This document shows positions 26,301 through 32,054 of a stretch of 47,262 bases of DNA, one piece after another (position 1 is the stretch's first letter; every line of letters starts with the position of its first letter). The DNA comes from a virus (Duplodnaviria; Heunggongvirae; Uroviricota; Caudoviricetes), in IMG/VR virus record IMGVR_UViG_2718217795_000004; one strand, written 5' to 3'. The translations under genes were made by a program, and so were the position numbers. The notes below the pieces were generated by a model, which saw only the letters and a list, made by a program, of their open reading frames with translations, was not told where the DNA came from and searched no databases.

Positions 26301-27776
26301 TTAGGAGCGCCAAAAAAAACCTGAAAACAATATAATAACAGGATAAATTTCAAGGCGACCAAGAATCATAGCTATGCACATTAAATATTTTGCAATGTCA
26401 TTAAGCACTCCGAATGACGATGCAGTAGCCCCAAAACCTAATCCCATATTATTAATACATGCAGCCACTGTTGCAAATGATGTAAGAAAATCATATCCCA
26501 TACCATTTAACACCAGTATAAAAAACACCGTGAAGAGAGTATAAAGAAAAAAGAAACTCCATACAGACCTCATTACACGATCTGTAACTATCTTCCCTCC
26601 TACATTTACACTCAACAACGCTCTGGGATGAGAAAGCTGATTTATCTCGTGTTTGCTTTGTTTGAAAAGTATAAGAAATCGAAGTGACTTAATTCCACCA
26701 CAAGTTGAACCTATACATCCCCCAAAGAAACTTGACAACAGCAAAAACACTATCGTGTGCGTGGGCCAGTTTGCATAATCCTGCGTAGCTAAACCATTAT
26801 CAGTGAGCATGGAGCTGGCAAGAAAAAACGAATGAATAAAACTTCCATGCAAGTCATACATACCTATATGCCAGACCTGGAAAGAGGTAACAATGATCAC
26901 CCCTAAGGCTATTAACAGAAAGAAACGAAGTTCAATATCTCTGATTAAAGGTTTTATCGTTTTCCTGCTAATAACAATATACCAAAGAGTGAAGTTGAAA
27001 GCCGATAGCAGGGAAAAAGAACCAGCCACCAGCTCAACCAAATAGTTATTAAAATATCCGATACTCTCGCTATGAGTTGAGAAACCACCAAGCGAAACTG
27101 TGGAAATCCCGTGACAAATAGCATCAAACAAAGGCATTCCTGCAAGTCTATAACAGACAATACAAGCAATACCTAATAAAGAATAAGTTATCCACAGTGT
27201 CCGTGACGTATCGGCCAGGCGGGGAGTGAGTTTGTCATCCTTAAATGGCCCCGGCATTTCTGACTGATAAAGCTTTGCACCACCAATACCCAATAATGGC
27301 AATACAGCAACCGCCAGAACAATAACTCCTAAACCACCTATAAAATTTAACTGTGACCGATAGTACAAATATGCCCGAGGTAATGAACTAACATCATCAA
27401 TTACAGTTGCTCCTGTTGTTGTTATTCCAGAAACCCCTTCAAACAGAGCATCAATGAACGTTAAATTAAGTTCTGAGTCAATCCATAAAGGGAATGCACT
27501 AATAACAGAAAACAAAATCCAAAACATTACAATTATAATAAACCCATCACGGGTACGTAATTGAATGCCAGATTTCTTAGTTGTATACCACGCTCCGCCA
27601 CCAATGCAAAAAAATATAACGAAAGTTATAAAGAAAACGAATAGGCTTTTTTCTTTATAAAACAATGCTACAACCATTGGTGGCAACATTGAAAGACTAT
27701 AGAGCCAAACCAGGAACCCACACATATGAGTAACAACTCTTACATGAGATGTATTCATATCTAAATATTCTTTCAA
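26301..27776 (-). CDS. trkG: TrkH/TrkG-family potassium uptake protein
   Basis: 491 aa polytopic membrane protein with repeated GxG-containing pore-like segments; visibly AT-rich gene; matches the known Rac cargo gene trkG. Confidence 0.9.
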   Translation of the reverse strand: MKEYLDMNTSHVRVVTHMCGFLVWLYSLSMLPPMVVALFYKEKSLFVFFITFVIFFCIGGGAWYTTKKSGIQLRTRDGFIIIVMFWILFSVISAFPLWIDSELNLTFIDALFEGVSGITTTGATVIDDVSSLPRAYLYYRSQLNFIGGLGVIVLAVAVLPLLGIGGAKLYQSEMPGPFKDDKLTPRLADTSRTLWITYSLLGIACIVCYRLAGMPLFDAICHGISTVSLGGFSTHSESIGYFNNYLVELVAGSFSLLSAFNFTLWYIVISRKTIKPLIRDIELRFFLLIALGVIIVTSFQVWHIGMYDLHGSFIHSFFLASSMLTDNGLATQDYANWPTHTIVFLLLSSFFGGCIGSTCGGIKSLRFLILFKQSKHEINQLSHPRALLSVNVGGKIVTDRVMRSVWSFFFLYTLFTVFFILVLNGMGYDFLTSFATVAACINNMGLGFGATASSFGVLNDIAKYLMCIAMILGRLEIYPVIILFSGFFWRS

Positions 27777-27895
27777 TTATAACCACCTTGCTGCAATATT
27801 ATGATTATACTGTATAAAATTTAACTCCTCTTAGATCTTACTTCACTGTTCCTTATGAAACAATCATCAAAATGAATCATATTGTAGTTAAGATT

Positions 27896-28360
27896 TTACT
27901 TTAAACACTGTTCGGTTATGTATTGCTGAGCACCTTCAAGTTGGGCCTGCATCATTACCAGTCGTTCCCGGAGGGTGAAATAATCCCGTTCAGCGGTGTC
28001 TGCCAGTCGGGGGGAGGCTGCATTATCCACGCCGGAGGCGGTGGTGGCTTCACGCACTGACTGACAGACTGCTTTGATGTGCAACCGACGACGACCAGCG
28101 GCAACATCATCACGCAGAGCATCATTTTCAGCTTTCGCATCAGCTAACTCCTTCGTGTATTTTGCATCGAGCGCAGCAACATCACGCTGACGCATCTGCA
28201 TGTCAGTAATTGCCGCGTTCGCCAGCTTCAGTTCTCTGGCATTTTTGTCGCGCTGCTCTTTGTAGGCGGTGGCGTTATCACGGTAATGATTAACAGCCCA
28301 TGACAGGCAGACGATGATGCAGATAACCAGAGCATAAATAATCGCGGCGACTCTGCTCAC
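27896..28360 (-). CDS. Rz: spanin, inner-membrane subunit Rz
   Basis: N-terminal TM ([17 protein letters not shown]) plus coiled-coil; lambda Rz-like; probable GTG start at 28360 overlapping the endolysin stop (GTGA). Confidence 0.85.
27955..28140 (-). CDS. Rz1: spanin, outer-membrane lipoprotein Rz1 (embedded in Rz, +1 frame)
   Basis: 61 aa; lipobox LPLVVVGC and PPPPP run; essentially identical to lambda Rz1 from recall. Confidence 0.85.
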
Positions 28361-28890
28361 TGATCTATCCCCCAACAGGCTAATGCGCTTTCCTGGTCAC
28401 GACGAATAACCTGTCCATAGCAGTTATTTGAACGTATGCGGCAATCGCGCCCACCATCTTTTATCCACCAGCGAATCGCCTCGCATGCACCCTTACGATC
28501 ACCGGCATTCAGCCGCTTATAAAACGTCGACGGGAAACACTTACCGGGGCCAATGTTATAGGGACAAAATGACGCTATACCCGCTTTCTGTGGTTCGGTC
28601 AGTGGTACTTTAATATTGCGCTCCACCCATGCCAGCGCCTTATCACGTTCAATAGCGTTAACCTGGTCGCATTTTTCCTTCGACAGCCTCATTCCCGGTA
28701 TGACGGGCTTACCATCCACCATTGTGGCACCACGACAGATGGTCCATATACCGGAACCATCGCGGTATGCCGTTGTGTGGTTACCTTCTTTTTCATCCAG
28801 AAACTGGTCGAGAATATCAGGCGCAGGCGCACCGACGGCAATCAGTGCCAGAACGGCAGCCGACAGGCCGTATCTGATTTTTGCGTTCAT
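28357..28890 (-). CDS. R: SAR endolysin (GH24 lysozyme, R21-type)
   Basis: 177 aa; Gly/Ala-rich N-terminal signal-anchor ([17 protein letters not shown]) then catalytic E..D..T pattern ([20 protein letters not shown]). Confidence 0.85.
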
Positions 28891-28995
28891 GGATATTTAT
28901 CAGGATTTATCGGTTTCTGAACCCTGGATATGTTTATCTGTCCCGGCCTGTTGAATCAGGCAAGGAATAGTTAAATACAATAGAGAGGATTGTTT

Positions 28996-29268
28996 ATGGA
29001 CAATAGCACCATTTCTCTACAGGAGTTGCTCGACTGCATTTCCAAGCTTCGGGATGATGTAAATGCCCTTACTGTCGCATTTTCATATCTGGCATTCTCA
29101 ATTCCCAAGGAACAAATGCAACCAACACTGGCATCGCTCCAGCTTGAATCACTCAACCCCAAATGGTCCCAGCAACAACAAAATTCTTTCAAGTGGCTGG
29201 CGGTATTACTGGAAGAAAAATATGCTGGTGAAATTACCATTTCGGCGGAGTCTTCAGTGAACCAGTAA
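28996..29268 (+). CDS. hypothetical protein (90 aa), opposite strand inside the lysis cassette
   Basis: ATG at 28996 with GAGAGGA SD; protein-like translation (MDNSTISLQELLDCISKLRDDVNALTVAF...); transcribed against the late operon. Confidence 0.55.
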   Translation: MDNSTISLQELLDCISKLRDDVNALTVAFSYLAFSIPKEQMQPTLASLQLESLNPKWSQQQQNSFKWLAVLLEEKYAGEITISAESSVNQ

Positions 29269-29578
29269 TTCTTCCCGGCAGTTTTCCTTTGTAGGTTATC
29301 CACACACCCTGCGCCTCTAAAATTATGGGGCGCTTTTCCGGTGACTGCTCATCCCCTTCACATAACCCTGCAGCAACATCCAGGAAGACCTGTCTGATGC
29401 TCCTTCTGGCTGCTGCCTCATAAAACTCCAGCGCGGCACCTTCAACACGGTCCAGCGAGATGTCCAGGTCTAAAATTTCACCGTCAAAGCGTTTTTTGTC
29501 CCGTAACGCTAAAGTTACCGTAACTTTATTCTCAAAATTGCGGATCCCTTTCACAATCAGTTCATAGTTTTGAGTCAT
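29234..29578 (-). CDS. hypothetical cytoplasmic protein (114 aa) between pinholin and endolysin
   Basis: ATG at 29578 with GGGGAGAG SD overlapping the pinholin stop; no TM segment. Confidence 0.5.
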   Translation of the reverse strand: MTQNYELIVKGIRNFENKVTVTLALRDKKRFDGEILDLDISLDRVEGAALEFYEAAARRSIRQVFLDVAAGLCEGDEQSPEKRPIILEAQGVWITYKGKLPGRITGSLKTPPKW

Positions 29579-29582
29579 TGAA

Positions 29583-29798
29583 TTACTCTCCCCGTGCCGC
29601 CTTACGACGGTCCTCTCTGATTTTGAAATACAGGTTAGTCAGATATGTCAGCAGCCCAAACAGCAGACTCCCCAGCACGCCTATTGCCGCCCACTGAGAC
29701 GGGGAAACCCTGTCCAGCAACTGCAGGAACCAGTAGCCCGTTCCCACCGCTGACGTGGTGTATGACACACCTGTTGTGATTTTTTCCATCTGGTCCAT
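29583..29798 (-). CDS. S: pinholin (phage 21 S-like) with dual-start motif
   Basis: 71 aa from MDQMEK (Met1/Met4); C-terminus [20 protein letters not shown] matches S21 from recall; GGAG SD upstream. Confidence 0.85.
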
Positions 29799-30105
29799 AC
29801 CCCGTCTCCCGTTATCCGGAAGCTGACAACAATAAAAAAGCCACCAGTTAACTACTGATGGCTCTGATAACTCATGCAAGCGTCTCAGACGATCCACTGA
29901 CACTACCGGTGAGTTTAACGATACCTTCCATTTGACTGGCTCACTTTTTATGATGATGCCGGTGTATTTATCTCCAGCACCAGACTTTCTATCTCAACGC
30001 CATACGTTGCATTTTTGGTAATATCCGTCAGCGTCAGTGCATTTAGTCCCACTGCCAGACCGTCTTTTATGGCCTGGAATGCCGGGCCAGTACGATGACG
30101 TAGTA

Positions 30106-30309
30106 TCACTCCGGCTCAGTTGCACCACTGACCACCACATCACCTTCTGCTGCAATCGCCTGCATCAGGGTATAAGGGGTTATGGCCACCGGACTACCAA
30201 ACGGCTGCCAGCCCTCTTTCAGTTTATGTGTCAGCTTTTCCGCAAGATCTGACGGCGCCGCCGCCCTGACAACATCATAGTGTTTAAATGCCATGGTTCT
30301 TTCCACCAT
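30106..30309 (-). CDS. hypothetical small protein (62-67 aa)
   Basis: ORF upstream of the lysis cassette with an AT-rich promoter-like region; start ambiguous (TTG at 30309 or ATG at 30294). Confidence 0.45.
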   Translation of the reverse strand: MVERTMAFKHYDVVRAAAPSDLAEKLTHKLKEGWQPFGSPVAITPYTLMQAIAAEGDVVVSGATEPE

Positions 30310-30554
30310 CTGAAAAATAATTCTTTAAAATACCTGACATGTAATACAGAAAAAACACAAAACCATACCTTAAATAAAAACTTGATTATCAAGCAGATAT
30401 GCATGGATAAACTACAAGACGAGATATAAACCACCCTGCATTTAAATAAACAATAAACAACATCAGAAAAATAATTCTGCTCTATGGTTTACATTCAAAA
30501 ATATCATTTATACTTTTCAGAACATCACCAGCAAGGCATAAACAAGGAAACTAA

Positions 30555-30890
30555 ATGAAGTGGATTGTGATTGATACAGTTATCCAGCCATCATGCGGAA
30601 TATCTTTTTCAGTCATATGGAGTAAAGTAAAATTAATAATCTGGTATCAATCGGATGCTTTCTTACCTCCTGAAAGTATATTTACACTGACTCACACAGG
30701 TATCATGCTCAATAACAAAGTGCTACCTGTAACCATTTACAACGTAGTACCATTCAATAAAACATTCTGGAATTTAATCAAAAACAGCCAGGAATGCCCT
30801 ACAAATACAGATAACGTATTGAATGAATGCTTTAATAACCGTTGCATTCTGCAAATATGTCCTTATGGACTAAAACAACAAAGTCCATAA
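30555..30890 (+). CDS. hypothetical protein (111 aa), AT-rich moron
   Basis: ATG with AAGGAA SD; AT-rich; followed by an 11-bp perfect inverted repeat and a GC hairpin. Confidence 0.45.
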
Positions 30891-31691: not shown

Positions 31692-31804
31692 TACTTAACA
31701 GAACTTTTATTTTTGACAAACATAAAATATTTTCAACAATATCCTGAGCCAGGTATATTTCAGTATAAGGCTCTGCCGGAAGGAATCTGGAAGAATGAAT
31801 ATAG

Positions 31805-31878
31805 CGCGCTGTACTGGATTCGAACCAGTGACCGATTGCTTAGAAGGCAATTGCTCTGTCCGGCTGAGCTAACAACGC
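31805..31878 (-). tRNA. tRNA-Arg (anticodon UCU)
   Basis: Hand-folded cloverleaf: acceptor GCGTTGT/ACAGCGC, D-stem GCTC/GAGC, anticodon stem ATTGC/GCAAT with loop CTTCTAA, T-arm ACTGG-TTCGAAT-CCAGT; no encoded CCA. Confidence 0.8.
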
Positions 31879-31978: not shown

Positions 31979-32054
31979 TGGTGGCCCTTGCTGGATTTGA
32001 ACCAGCGACCTGGCGATTATGAGTCGCTCGCTCTCACCACTGAGCTAAAGGGCC
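31979..32054 (-). tRNA. tRNA-Ile2 (anticodon CAU, ileX/ileZ-like)
   Basis: Cloverleaf with acceptor GGCCCTT/AAGGGCC, anticodon loop CTCATAA, T-arm GCTGG-TTCAAAT-CCAGC, encoded CCA; closely resembles E. coli ileX from recall rather than a Met tRNA. Confidence 0.8.

What the first reader, a model, noticed from the sequence alone, without database searches (positions are those of the whole stretch)
28996..29578. Two extra genes inserted inside the lysis cassette, one antisense to the late operon
Between the pinholin (29583-29798) and the SAR endolysin (28357-28890) lie a 114-aa cytoplasmic protein with an SD overlapping the pinholin stop, and a 90-aa ORF on the opposite strand with its own SD. 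A canonical S21-R21-Rz-Rz1 cassette has neither. They may modulate lysis timing or be independent morons, and an antisense gene here would collide with late transcription.
Basis: partly seen in the sequence, partly recalled or inferred. Interest (0 to 1): 0.45.

Follow-up and report, generated by a model that had tools for sequence, protein, structure and literature searches.

The report
Two accessory genes inside prophage lysis cassette
Between the hole-forming and wall-degrading lysis genes of this Rac-like E. coli prophage sit two real, conserved, already annotated small genes of unknown function: an optional late gene (ydfR) and a backwards-facing passenger gene, an arrangement found in about a fifth of complete E. 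coli genomes.

Summary
The window is a Rac-like lambdoid prophage. Its late operon is on the - strand and carries an S21-type pinholin, a SAR endolysin and Rz/Rz1.

**ydfR (29234-29578, -).** It is a DUF1327/YdfR-family gene (141.8 bits) whose ribosome-binding site overlaps the holin stop. Residues 1-74 are 80% identical to E. coli K-12 Qin YdfR. A 2026 paper reports that this part of the K-12 protein binds the catalytic half of RNase E. The gene is optional: 427 phage records have this holin type and 101 have YdfR.

**ORF90 (28996-29268, +).** It is a genuine gene (phrog_2411, UniRef name 'Ybl58', RefSeq 'hypothetical protein').
- It is the only frame open in all 10 lineages examined, and pN/pS is 0.32-0.36.
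- Relatives at 28-45% identity exist. In 40 of 40 species genomes of Serratia, Sodalis and related genera they form a fixed chromosomal locus, dinI-X-bssS.
- It lies on a ~285-bp presence/absence segment of lower G+C.
- It is an acidic, soluble, three-helix protein.

Best reading: ORF90 is an antisense, moron-like passenger (layout as I recall for lambda bor), and ydfR is a non-essential late accessory gene. Neither function is shown. The genes are ordinary and already annotated, including in BL21(DE3). Interest is modest.

The parts
29583..29798 (-). Class II (S21-type) pinholin with a Met1/Met4 dual start
   Evidence: PF04971 at E 9e-33; phrog_9876 and phrog_20, category holin; sequence read
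29586..29593 (-). Shine-Dalgarno-like GGGGAGAG for ydfR, inside the last holin codons. The holin stop is at 29583-29585, and 4 nt separate it from the ydfR ATG.
   Evidence: Read directly from the sequence. Database ORFs that fuse holin and YdfR (P0065, P0068, P0090) show how tight the junction is.
29351..29578 (-). ydfR codons 1-76: acidic N-terminal domain (pI 4.9), predicted as three beta strands followed by one long helix
   Evidence: PF07041. AlphaFold2 pLDDT 63-84 over this part. 80% identity and 95% positives to K-12 Qin YdfR residues 1-74. pN/pS 0.44.
29234..29350 (-). ydfR codons 77-114: basic C-terminal module (pI 10) ending ...ITGSLKTPPKW. This part is mosaic within the family.
   Evidence: Alignment A6 and the variants. 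pLDDT below 50. The tail resembles the ends of 62-63-aa late-strand ORFs that pair with ORF90 homologues in other phages.
28996..29268 (+). ORF90 (phrog_2411; UniRef 'Ybl58'; RefSeq WP_000370546.1 'hypothetical protein'): acidic (pI 4.4), soluble three-helix protein, antisense to the late operon
   Evidence: Distant homologues. Only frame open in all 10 lineages examined. pN/pS 0.32-0.36. AlphaFold2 pLDDT 79.7 with helices 8-34, 38-52 and 59-76.
28984..28989 (+). Shine-Dalgarno AGAGGA for ORF90, 6 nt before the ATG
   Evidence: Sequence. Invariant in 39 distinct copies and retained in diverged E. coli copies.
28951..28981 (+). Promoter-like TTGAAT-N19-TACAAT upstream of ORF90. A candidate only: the spacer is too long for the consensus.
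   Evidence: TACAAT invariant. The consensus scan found no promoter here.
28954..29238 (.). Presence/absence segment of about 285 bp carrying the promoter-like element, the SD and ORF90 codons 1-81. In phages without ORF90, about 12 bp stand in its place. G+C is 0.42 against 0.52-0.54 for the holin and endolysin genes.
   Evidence: Pairwise alignment with phage vB_EcoS-611R1. Two-piece matches H4-H13 and H35-H39. G+C values.
28357..28890 (-). SAR endolysin (R21-like lysozyme)
   Evidence: PF00959 at E 1.3e-24; phrog_7; N-terminal Gly/Ala-rich hydrophobic segment
27896..28375 (-). Rz spanin, with Rz1 embedded at 27955-28140
   Evidence: PF03245 at E 9e-53 and PF06085 at E 2e-19
29837..29865 (-). 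Terminator-like hairpin with a U-run on the late strand, just upstream of the holin start
   Evidence: Fold -19.4 kcal/mol, z-score -2.8.

Best explanation
Two unrelated accessory genes share the gap between the pinholin and the SAR endolysin.

(1) ydfR is a late-operon gene. It is translated right behind the holin, with its SD inside the holin's last codons and a 4-nt spacer. It encodes a soluble two-module protein: an acidic beta3-alpha N-domain and a basic, mosaic C-terminal tail. It is an optional add-on to S21-type cassettes, not part of the lysis machinery. By close homology of the N-domain to K-12 YdfR, it most likely acts in the cytoplasm late in infection by binding the catalytic half of RNase E and/or RNA, so affecting RNA turnover. 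This last step is inferred, not shown.

(2) ORF90 is a single-gene, moron-like unit on a ~285-bp presence/absence segment, facing against the late operon. It encodes an acidic three-helix cytoplasmic protein. In Serratia, Sodalis and related genera, members of its family are a fixed chromosomal gene between dinI and bssS. It is most likely transcribed on its own in the lysogen, when the late operon is silent, and acts as a small protein-binding regulator for the host or prophage rather than in lysis. After induction, Q-modified late transcription would run over it.

Shown here: that both are real genes, their family membership, the indel, their distribution, and the genomic contexts. Inferred: when each is expressed, RNase E binding by this particular YdfR, and any physiological role of ORF90.
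For: ydfR:
- PF07041 at 141.8 bits.
- 80% identity to K-12 YdfR over residues 1-74. Residues 1-72 of K-12 YdfR sufficed for a two-hybrid signal with RNase E 1-597. Strep-YdfR co-purified Rne 1-598 and DNase-resistant nucleic acid (PMC13232886).
- 101 phage records carry it against 427 with the same holin type.
- pN/pS 0.41, and intact in 39 of 39 distinct copies.
- No transmembrane segment.

ORF90:
- phrog_2411 over its full length.
- A profile search over 1.84 billion proteins finds homologues of 81-106 aa. There are 86 clusters, in Serratia, Sodalis, Citrobacter, Chimaeribacter and Acerihabitans among others.
- 40 of 40 species genomes examined show dinI-X-bssS on one strand. Other stand-alone chromosomal contexts also occur.
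- The + frame is the only one open in all lineages. pN/pS is 0.32-0.36.
- The indel is mapped, and the segment has lower G+C.
- The SD and the TACAAT element are invariant.
- The same module sits next to a different endolysin set (L090). ydfR is largely deleted with ORF90 intact in L085.
- It is antisense at other late-region positions in a Citrobacter prophage and in a lambda-like contig.
- An isolated phage, Chlobot, carries both genes at 98.6% identity.
Against: - I had no expression data for either gene.
- The promoter candidate for ORF90 has a 19-nt spacer, and a transcription start about 7 nt after TACAAT would fall inside or after the SD. The consensus scan found no promoter and no + strand terminator. 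The classical moron definition is therefore only partly met.
- ORF90 is rare in sequenced phage isolates (3 records). Some copies carry nonsense or frameshift mutations, so selection may be weak in cryptic prophages.
- The YdfR-RNase E contact was not shown with purified, nuclease-treated proteins and could be bridged by RNA. Overproducing K-12 YdfR changed few transcripts (PMC13232886). The C-terminal part of the window's YdfR is unrelated to that of K-12.
- Tight translational coupling to the holin, and linkage to the holin rather than to the endolysin, would also fit a holin-related role.
- In three phage lineages ORF90 homologues overlap the 3' end of a late-strand ORF with a YdfR-like tail. 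This hints at a functional pairing that the 'two unrelated genes' reading does not explain.
Confidence: 0.55

Rival explanations
1. YdfR, alone or together with ORF90, is a lysis-timing regulator. As a cytoplasmic factor it would act on the pinholin, for example through the holin's charged C-terminal tail, in the way T4 RIII acts as a cytoplasmic antiholin cofactor (RIII role from my own knowledge).
For: - The SD lies inside the holin's last codons with a 4-nt spacer, so YdfR is made together with the holin.
- ydfR directly follows an S21-type holin in every intact copy inspected.
- It stays with the holin when the neighbouring endolysin set is different (L090).
- PMC13232886 cites a genetic screen that linked K-12 ydfR to envelope integrity.
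Against: - About three quarters of phage records with this holin type lack ydfR, so it is not needed for pinholin/SAR lysis.
- There is no transmembrane or signal segment.
- It matches no known lysis-regulator family.
- The envelope phenotype of a ydfR knockout could be a polar effect on the endolysin gene immediately downstream (inference).
- ORF90 homologues occur where there are no lysis genes at all.
Confidence: 0.2
2. The important product of the ORF90 unit is its RNA. A transcript made in the lysogen, antisense to ydfR and the holin, would pair with late mRNA. It would either silence leaky lysis-gene expression or exclude superinfecting relatives. This is how the BTP1 asRNA STnc6030 works.
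For: - The orientation is antisense to the late operon in all three phage lineages seen.
- The 3' overlap with a late-strand ORF is conserved.
- No + strand terminator follows ORF90, so a transcript would extend into ydfR and the holin gene.
- There is a precedent in PMC7067206.
Against: - Constraint at the protein level is clear. pN/pS is 0.32-0.36, only the + frame is open in all lineages, and homologues at 28-45% identity keep their length and helix pattern.
- Most family members are chromosomal genes with nothing to be antisense to.
- There is no Rfam match.
- An RNA role could exist in addition to the protein role, but it cannot be the main reason the ORF is kept.
Confidence: 0.12
3. ORF90 and the YdfR tail module, or the free 62-63-aa 'tail ORFs', form a two-gene mobile unit whose products or transcripts work together. 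The pair might be a regulator with its target, or an addiction-like pair.
For: - In E. coli, Citrobacter and a lambda-like contig, the ORF90 homologue converges on and overlaps (35, 14 and 20 nt) a late-strand ORF ending in ITGSL(K/R)xP or LTGDILIP.
- The Citrobacter and lambda-like short ORFs are homologous to each other (E 7e-7).
- The Citrobacter ORF is homologous to the C-terminal extension of a 161-aa YdfR variant (E 1e-10).
- The last 30 nt of ORF90, including its stop codon, are encoded in ydfR-tail DNA.
Against: - Only three lineages were seen, and the tail similarity to YdfR is weak (E 7e-4 for a single comparison).
- ydfR exists widely without ORF90.
- ORF90 homologues exist widely without any such partner.
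- The overlap may simply mark one old insertion event that was inherited.
- There is no match to any defence or toxin-antitoxin model.
Confidence: 0.1
4. ORF90 is a chance open frame. The real coding sequence would be on the late (-) strand (the 110-aa ORF at 28971-29303), or the segment would be non-coding.
For: - The - strand frame that shares wobble positions with ORF90 is open in this window and also shows low pN/pS (0.23).
- 3 of 22 distinct close copies carry nonsense mutations in ORF90, and frameshifted clusters exist.
Against: - The - strand frame has 1-2 stop codons in E. coli copies with 76-79% protein identity and 1-5 stops in distant homologues. The + frame is open in all.
- The low pN/pS on the - strand is the expected by-product of shared third codon positions.
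- The - strand product is rich in Cys, Ser and Trp and has no Pfam match.
- Profile searches recover + frame homologues across genera.
Confidence: 0.03

Closest known systems
E. coli K-12 Qin prophage YdfR (P76160), in essQ-ydfR-rrrQ-rzpQ
   Same: Same Pfam family (PF07041). Same position, directly after an S21-type holin and before the lysozyme gene. The N-terminal 74 residues are 80% identical. PMC13232886 reports that this part binds the N-terminal half of RNase E.
   Different: The C-terminal parts are unrelated after residue 74 (114 aa against 103 aa). In K-12 the ydfR stop overlaps the rrrQ start. Here, 343 bp containing an antisense gene separate ydfR from the endolysin gene.
Phage lambda bor (orientation and expression stated from my own knowledge; PMC7067206 lists bor among the lambda genes expressed in lysogens)
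   Same: A small accessory gene lodged in the lysis region of a lambdoid late operon, on the opposite strand, and thought to be expressed from the prophage while late genes are silent. This is the classic moron layout.
   Different: Bor is an exported lipoprotein with a known phenotype (serum resistance) and lies after Rz/Rz1. ORF90 has no signal peptide or lipobox, is acidic and helical, lies between the holin and the endolysin, overlaps ydfR tail to tail, and has no known phenotype. There is no sequence relationship.
Uncharacterised chromosomal gene between dinI and bssS in Serratia, Sodalis, Chimaeribacter, Acerihabitans and Biostraticola
   Same: Same protein family as ORF90 (E 1e-8 to 1e-15 in a profile search). 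Same size and three-helix pattern. Shared motif ELL..I..LR..VN.L..AFSYLAFS...E......L..ES.N.
   Different: It is a fixed core-genome locus, found in 40 of 40 species genomes examined, on the same strand as its neighbours, with no phage genes and no convergent partner ORF. Identity to ORF90 is only about 30-36%.
Salmonella prophage BTP1 antisense RNA STnc6030 (PMC7067206)
   Same: A transcription unit inside prophage late genes, antisense to them. STnc6030 is active in the lysogen, which is only inferred for ORF90. It shows that antisense units in late operons are tolerated and can be useful.
   Different: STnc6030 is a non-coding RNA with a demonstrated exclusion phenotype. ORF90 is clearly under protein-level constraint, and no RNA function has been tested.
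Phage modulators of RNase E: T4 Srd and phiKZ Dip (from my own knowledge)
   Same: These are phage proteins that bind host RNase E and change RNA decay during infection. That is the kind of role inferred for YdfR.

Membership tests
DUF1327 / YdfR family (PF07041) | Score above the Pfam gathering threshold over most of the model | tested here: met
   141.8 bits against a cut-off of 25. Residues 1-112 match model positions 1-92 of 93. Also phrog_406 over its full length at E 2.5e-67.
DUF1327 / YdfR family (PF07041) | Located directly downstream of an S21-type (class II) holin in a lambdoid late operon | tested here: met
   4-nt spacer after the PF04971 holin. The same layout is seen in K-12 Qin, a BL21(DE3) derivative and several phages.
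DUF1327 / YdfR family (PF07041) | Binding of the N-terminal domain to the catalytic half of RNase E and to RNA (reported only for K-12 YdfR) | not testable with these tools
   Only homology is available: 80% identity over residues 1-74 to the fragment used in PMC13232886.
PHROG 2411 / 'Ybl58' small-protein family | Full-length profile match | tested here: met
   E 4.3e-59, residues 1-90 on model positions 1-90 of 90. The exact sequence is on at least 1000 contigs and is named Ybl58 in UniRef.
Moron (independent accessory transcription unit in a phage operon) | Presence/absence polymorphism between otherwise collinear phage genomes | tested here: met
   Segment 28954-29238 is replaced by about 12 bp in vB_EcoS-611R1 and relatives. 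1220 of 5426 genomes carry ORF90 DNA, against 3750 that match the 692-bp ydfR-ORF90 query, mostly in its ydfR part.
Moron (independent accessory transcription unit in a phage operon) | Base composition different from the flanking genes | tested here: met
   G+C is 0.42 for the segment against 0.54 (holin) and 0.52 (endolysin). The difference is mild.
Moron (independent accessory transcription unit in a phage operon) | Its own promoter | tested here: inconclusive
   Only TTGAAT-N19-TACAAT was found. It is conserved, but the spacer is too long. The consensus scan found no promoter upstream of ORF90.
Moron (independent accessory transcription unit in a phage operon) | Its own terminator | tested here: not met
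   No convincing + strand terminator follows 29268. The only + strand candidates are 5-bp stems at 29757 and 29995.
Moron (independent accessory transcription unit in a phage operon) | Expression from the repressed prophage | not testable with these tools
   No transcriptome or proteome data were reachable. Literature searches by name and by accession found nothing.
Known lysis regulators (antiholins, and accessory proteins of the LydB, LysA/LysB or RI/RIII kind) | Sequence membership in a described lysis-accessory family | tested here: not met
   Pfam, NCBIfam and PHROGs give only families of unknown function for both proteins.
Known lysis regulators (antiholins, and accessory proteins of the LydB, LysA/LysB or RI/RIII kind) | A membrane or periplasmic segment. 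This is required for most of these proteins but not for RIII-like cytoplasmic factors. | tested here: not met
   The highest 19-residue hydropathy is 0.69 (YdfR) and 0.88 (ORF90), against 1.70 for the holin.
Anti-phage defence or toxin-antitoxin components | Match to a PADLOC model | tested here: not met
   No hit at E up to 0.1 for YdfR, ORF90, a long YdfR variant, or two chromosomal ORF90 homologues.

The most novel reading that the evidence does not exclude
ORF90 and the YdfR tail module could be a conserved convergent gene pair that moves between lambdoid late regions and tunes late-mRNA fate. In this reading the RNase E-binding YdfR is made with the holin. The antisense unit, whose protein comes from a host family fixed next to the SOS gene dinI, supplies either a partner protein or an RNA duplex over the junction between the holin and endolysin genes. 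Together they would set the ratio or timing of holin and endolysin synthesis, or exclude related phages.
Probability: 0.06. Interest if true: 0.6.

Novelty: new member of a known kind. Interest (0 to 1): 0.3.

Why it matters
**For annotators.** Extra ORFs inside a lysis cassette need not be lysis genes. The Q-S-R-Rz stretch of this prophage also carries iraM and trkG, so it looks like a cargo-rich stretch.

**For function.**
- ydfR is one of the most widespread uncharacterised late genes of E. coli prophages. ydfR-like DNA is in about 69% of complete genomes, and Stx1a and Stx2c phages carry the gene. It now has one experimental lead, RNase E binding. The mosaic structure described here shows which part, the N-domain, is the conserved unit to test.
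- ORF90 links a prophage gene present in about 22% of complete E. coli genomes, BL21(DE3) included, to an unstudied core gene between dinI and bssS in Serratia, Sodalis and relatives. One experiment in either system would inform both.

None of this changes how pinholin/SAR lysis is understood.

Tried and rejected
1. **ORF90 as an inverted copy of the C-terminal extension of the 161-183-aa YdfR variants.** BLASTP found nothing.
2. **The 110-aa - strand ORF (28971-29303) as the true gene.** It has low pN/pS only because it shares wobble positions with ORF90, and it is interrupted by stops in all other lineages.
3. **SOS control of the family.** A good CTG-N10-CAG box precedes the Serratia proteamaculans group genes. 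It is absent in S. plymuthica, S. marcescens, Sodalis and others, and absent in the window. A shared 'tggtCTGTAAT' -10-like element is the only common upstream feature.
4. **Fold searches.**
   - No PDB sequence relatives were found.
   - The afdb50 library was unavailable.
5. **Rfam over 27800-30600:** no match at E up to 1.
6. **PADLOC and NCBIfam:** nothing for either protein.
7. **The search for related loci with the divergent alignment A4** failed for lack of conserved stretches. It was repeated with the Serratia-type alignment A7.
8. **Literature.** One paper mentions DUF1327, and none mention Ybl58 or the WP accessions. Apart from PMC13232886, the ydfR hits were melanoma cell-line names, Bacillus ydfR, or passing mentions.
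9. **Proximity of rne to dinI-X-bssS in Serratia-like chromosomes**. I noted it but treat it as coincidence.
Full report
**What the window is.** The 692-bp stretch between the endolysin and holin genes is 100% identical to E. coli CFSAN061763. In that genome it lies in a full-length Rac-like lambdoid prophage next to ttcA. The late operon is on the strand that is the - strand of the window, in this order: Q, tRNAs, iraM (+ strand), class II holin, 'YdfR family protein', 'hypothetical protein' (+ strand), lysozyme, Rz, trkG, terminase, head and tail genes. Pfam confirms the cassette:
- holin PF04971 (29583-29798)
- lysozyme PF00959 (28357-28890)
- Rz PF03245
- Rz1 PF06085

The holin has a Met1/Met4 dual start. 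The endolysin has a Gly/Ala-rich N-terminal segment and E-8-D-5-T spacing.

**Observation check.**
- ydfR (29234-29578, -, 114 aa) starts 4 nt after the holin stop, and a GGGGAGAG stretch lies inside the last holin codons.
- ORF90 (28996-29268, +, 90 aa) has AGAGGA 6 nt before its ATG.
- The two genes converge and overlap by 35 nt.
- Both products are soluble by hydropathy.

**ydfR.**
- It matches DUF1327 (PF07041) at 141.8 bits and phrog_406 over its full length.
- The family is confined to Escherichia and Shigella prophages in the searches I ran.
- It is very common. 3750 of 5426 complete E. coli genomes match the 692-bp ydfR-ORF90 query, mostly in its ydfR part. 101 phage records encode YdfR, many of them Stx1a- and Stx2c-converting phages.
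- It is optional. 427 phage records have the same holin type, so about three quarters of S21-type cassettes do without it.
- It directly follows the holin in every intact copy I inspected, including one where the next lysis genes are a different set: Phage_holin_8, Phage_holin_3_7 and Peptidase_M15_4 (L090).
- It is under moderate purifying selection (pN/pS 0.41) and is intact in 39 of 39 distinct close copies.

**YdfR protein architecture.** The protein is modular.
- Residues 1-76 form a conserved acidic domain. AlphaFold2 predicts three beta strands and a long helix with pLDDT 63-84.
- The basic C-terminal part (pI 10) is poorly predicted and mosaic. The variants are:
  - 114 aa, ending ...TPPKW or ...TPPEF;
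  - 116 aa, ending ...TPPESQP;
  - 176-183 aa, with a helical extension;
  - 103-119 aa, unrelated after about residue 80.
- Fold and PDB searches gave nothing significant.

**The one experimental lead for YdfR.** Göpel et al. (RNA Biol 2026, PMC13232886) studied K-12 Qin YdfR.
- Residues 1-72 gave two-hybrid signals with RNase G and, more strongly, with RNase E constructs. The full-length fusion did so only with Rne 1-597.
- Strep-YdfR co-purified Rne 1-598 and DNase-resistant nucleic acid.
- Overproduction changed few transcripts.
- No test with purified, nuclease-treated proteins was reported for YdfR.

The window's YdfR is 80% identical (95% positives) to the K-12 protein over residues 1-74 and unrelated after that. 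I therefore infer, but cannot show, that this YdfR also contacts RNase E and/or RNA late in infection.

**ORF90 is a real gene.**
- RefSeq and GenBank annotators call it 'hypothetical protein'. UniRef names the identical sequence 'Ybl58', and it occurs on at least 1000 contigs.
- It matches phrog_2411 over its full length and no Pfam, NCBIfam or PADLOC model.
- In 39 distinct copies of the 692-bp region there are no indels, and variable sites in ORF90 fall 14/9/24 by codon position.
- pN/pS is 0.32-0.36.
- The - strand frame that shares wobble positions (the 110-aa ORF at 28971-29303) also scores low, at 0.23. That frame carries 1-2 stops in E. coli copies whose protein is 76-79% identical and 1-5 stops in distant homologues. 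The + frame is open in all ten lineages checked.
- A profile search of 1.84 billion representative proteins found relatives of 81-106 aa. They are 28-47% identical to ORF90 and share a motif. A second search found 86 clusters in Serratia, Sodalis, Citrobacter, Chania, Gibbsiella, Chimaeribacter and Acerihabitans.
- AlphaFold2 gives three helices (8-34, 38-52, 59-76) at mean pLDDT 79.7, with a disordered tail. Fold searches return only generic helical matches.
- Some copies are decaying. 3 of 22 distinct close copies have nonsense mutations, and frameshifted clusters exist.

**Where the ORF90 family lives.**
- *Fixed chromosomal locus.* In 40 of 40 species genomes of Serratia, Sodalis, Chimaeribacter, Acerihabitans and Biostraticola, the homologue lies between dinI and bssS on the same strand.
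- *Other stand-alone chromosomal sites.* These include Sodalis ligni, an unassigned metagenomic lineage, and an E. coli island next to an AIDA-type autotransporter.
- *Phages.* In phages it always faces against the late genes, but at different places:
  - between holin and endolysin in E. coli;
  - just upstream of the holin in a Citrobacter freundii prophage;
  - upstream of two small genes and the terminase in a lambda-like contig.
- In one E. coli variant most of ydfR is deleted while ORF90 is intact.

These contexts argue that the protein has a function of its own that is not tied to lysis.

**The indel.** Against phage vB_EcoS-611R1, which has ydfR directly followed by R, the window-specific segment is 28954-29238, and about 12 bp stand in its place in 611R1.
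- The segment starts at a TTGAAT hexamer. It contains TTGAAT-N19-TACAAT, the SD and ORF90 codons 1-81.
- The last 30 nt of ORF90, including its stop codon, lie in ydfR-tail DNA that ORF90-less phages also have.
- TACAAT and the SD are invariant in 39 copies. However, the 19-nt spacer is long, and the consensus scan reports no promoter or + strand terminator here.
- G+C of the segment is 0.42, against 0.52-0.54 for the neighbouring lysis genes.
- ORF90 DNA is in 1220 of 5426 complete E. coli genomes, but in only 3 of 50,697 phage records.
- One of those three is the isolated phage Chlobot, at 98.6% identity. The arrangement is therefore compatible with a working lytic cycle.
- A BL21(DE3) derivative carries identical YdfR and ORF90 proteins in its Rac remnant.

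**An unexplained regularity.** In all three phage lineages the ORF90 homologue overlaps the 3' end of a late-strand ORF by 35, 14 and 20 nt.
- The Citrobacter partner (63 aa) and the lambda-like partner (62 aa) are homologous to each other (E 7e-7).
- The N-terminal part of the Citrobacter ORF matches the C-terminal extension of a 161-aa YdfR variant (E 1e-10).
- Its tail...KITGSLRAPIKL, resembles the YdfR end...RITGSLKTPPKW (E 7e-4 for a single comparison).
- Chromosomal homologues have no such partner.

This may reflect one old insertion that was inherited, or a functional pairing. I keep the pairing as a low-probability rival.

**Mechanism.**
- *ORF90.* I commit to the following reading. 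It is a moron-like antisense passenger, transcribed on its own in the lysogen while the late operon is off, and it encodes a small acidic helical protein that acts by binding another protein. After induction, Q-modified late transcription would run over it. The layout is that of lambda bor, a lysogen-expressed gene that, as I recall, sits on the opposite strand beside the lysis genes. PMC7067206 lists bor among the genes expressed in lysogens.
- *ydfR.* It is an optional late gene made with the holin, and it most likely acts on RNase E or RNA.
- *Rivals.* These are a cytoplasmic holin regulator, an antisense-RNA role like BTP1 STnc6030 (PMC7067206), and a functional gene pair.
- *What separates them.* All of these hinge on experiments I could not run: TSS mapping, start-codon mutants, lysis curves and RNase E assays.

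**Novelty and verdict.** Both genes are already annotated in thousands of genomes, and ydfR at this position has been known since the K-12 genome was annotated. Three points may not have been described before; my literature searches found no description:
- the family-level link of ORF90 to the dinI-bssS locus;
- the mapped indel;
- the modular make-up of YdfR with the recurring convergent pairing.

These points are descriptive and do not change how lysis is understood. I rate the finding as a new member of a known kind, with modest interest.

Noticed in passing
window 26301-27776 (-): trkG (Trk potassium transporter, G+C 0.377) lies directly after Rz/Rz1 as late-region cargo. The same holin-ydfR-ORF90-R-Rz-trkG order is found in the Rac remnant of a BL21(DE3) derivative. 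From memory, K-12 Rac keeps trkG without this lysis cassette.
   Followed up: partly
window 30555-30890 (+): iraM (anti-adapter protein, G+C 0.34) is a second accessory gene facing against the late operon, between Q and the holin. With trkG it suggests that the Q-to-Rz stretch collects cargo genes.
   Followed up: no
window 29837-29865 (-): A strong terminator-like hairpin (12-bp stem followed by UUUUUUAUU; -19.4 kcal/mol, z-score -2.8) lies on the late strand about 40 nt upstream of the holin start. It could insulate the lysis genes from upstream cargo and tRNA transcription unless Q antitermination is active.
   Followed up: partly
window 28971-29303 (-): A 110-aa open frame lies exactly antisense to ORF90 and shares its wobble positions. 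It is open only in this sequence type and is a by-product, not a gene. It is a useful warning that low pN/pS alone cannot identify the coding strand.
   Followed up: yes
L094 5239-5430 (-) and L099 5248-5436 (-): Two unannotated-family ORFs of 62-63 aa (MTLEQ...ITGSLRAPIKL and MTLEQ...LTGDILIPLES) lie on the late strand of a Citrobacter prophage and a lambda-like contig. Each converges on and overlaps an ORF90 homologue. They share modules with long YdfR variants.
   Followed up: partly
L091-L093, L104-L143, L149-L151: The ORF90-family gene is a fixed chromosomal locus between dinI and bssS in Serratia, Sodalis, Chimaeribacter, Acerihabitans and Biostraticola. As I recall, E. coli K-12 has dinI directly next to bssS. 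A conserved 'tggtCTGTAAT' element precedes the gene, and a LexA-like box occurs only in the S. proteamaculans group. In L149, rne lies about 2 kb upstream, which is probably coincidence.
   Followed up: partly
L089 and L090: In L089, a Stx-encoding prophage (RIP plus SLT_beta genes), the holin-ydfR-ORF90 trio is followed, after an IS66 insertion, by a Phage_holin_8 gene rather than an R21-type lysozyme. In L090 the trio is followed by a second, different lysis set: Phage_holin_8, Phage_holin_3_7 and Peptidase_M15_4. The result is two holin systems in tandem.
   Followed up: no
window 31804-31878 (-) and 31979-32054 (-): Two tRNA genes lie between Q and the lysis genes: tRNA-Arg (anticodon tct) and a tRNA with anticodon cat. 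ARAGORN calls the second one Met and RefSeq calls it Ile.
   Followed up: no
window 30106-30309 (-): A 67-aa DUF1737 ORF lies upstream of the holin (PF08410, E 1.1e-16). RefSeq marks the corresponding feature as an incomplete pseudogene.
   Followed up: no
proteins P0065, P0068, P0090, P0150, P0165, P0171, P0179: Database ORFs that fuse the holin (PF04971) to YdfR (PF07041) in one reading frame. Given the 4-nt spacer, they are most simply single-base frameshifts, read-through mutations or sequencing errors. I did not check them individually.
   Followed up: no
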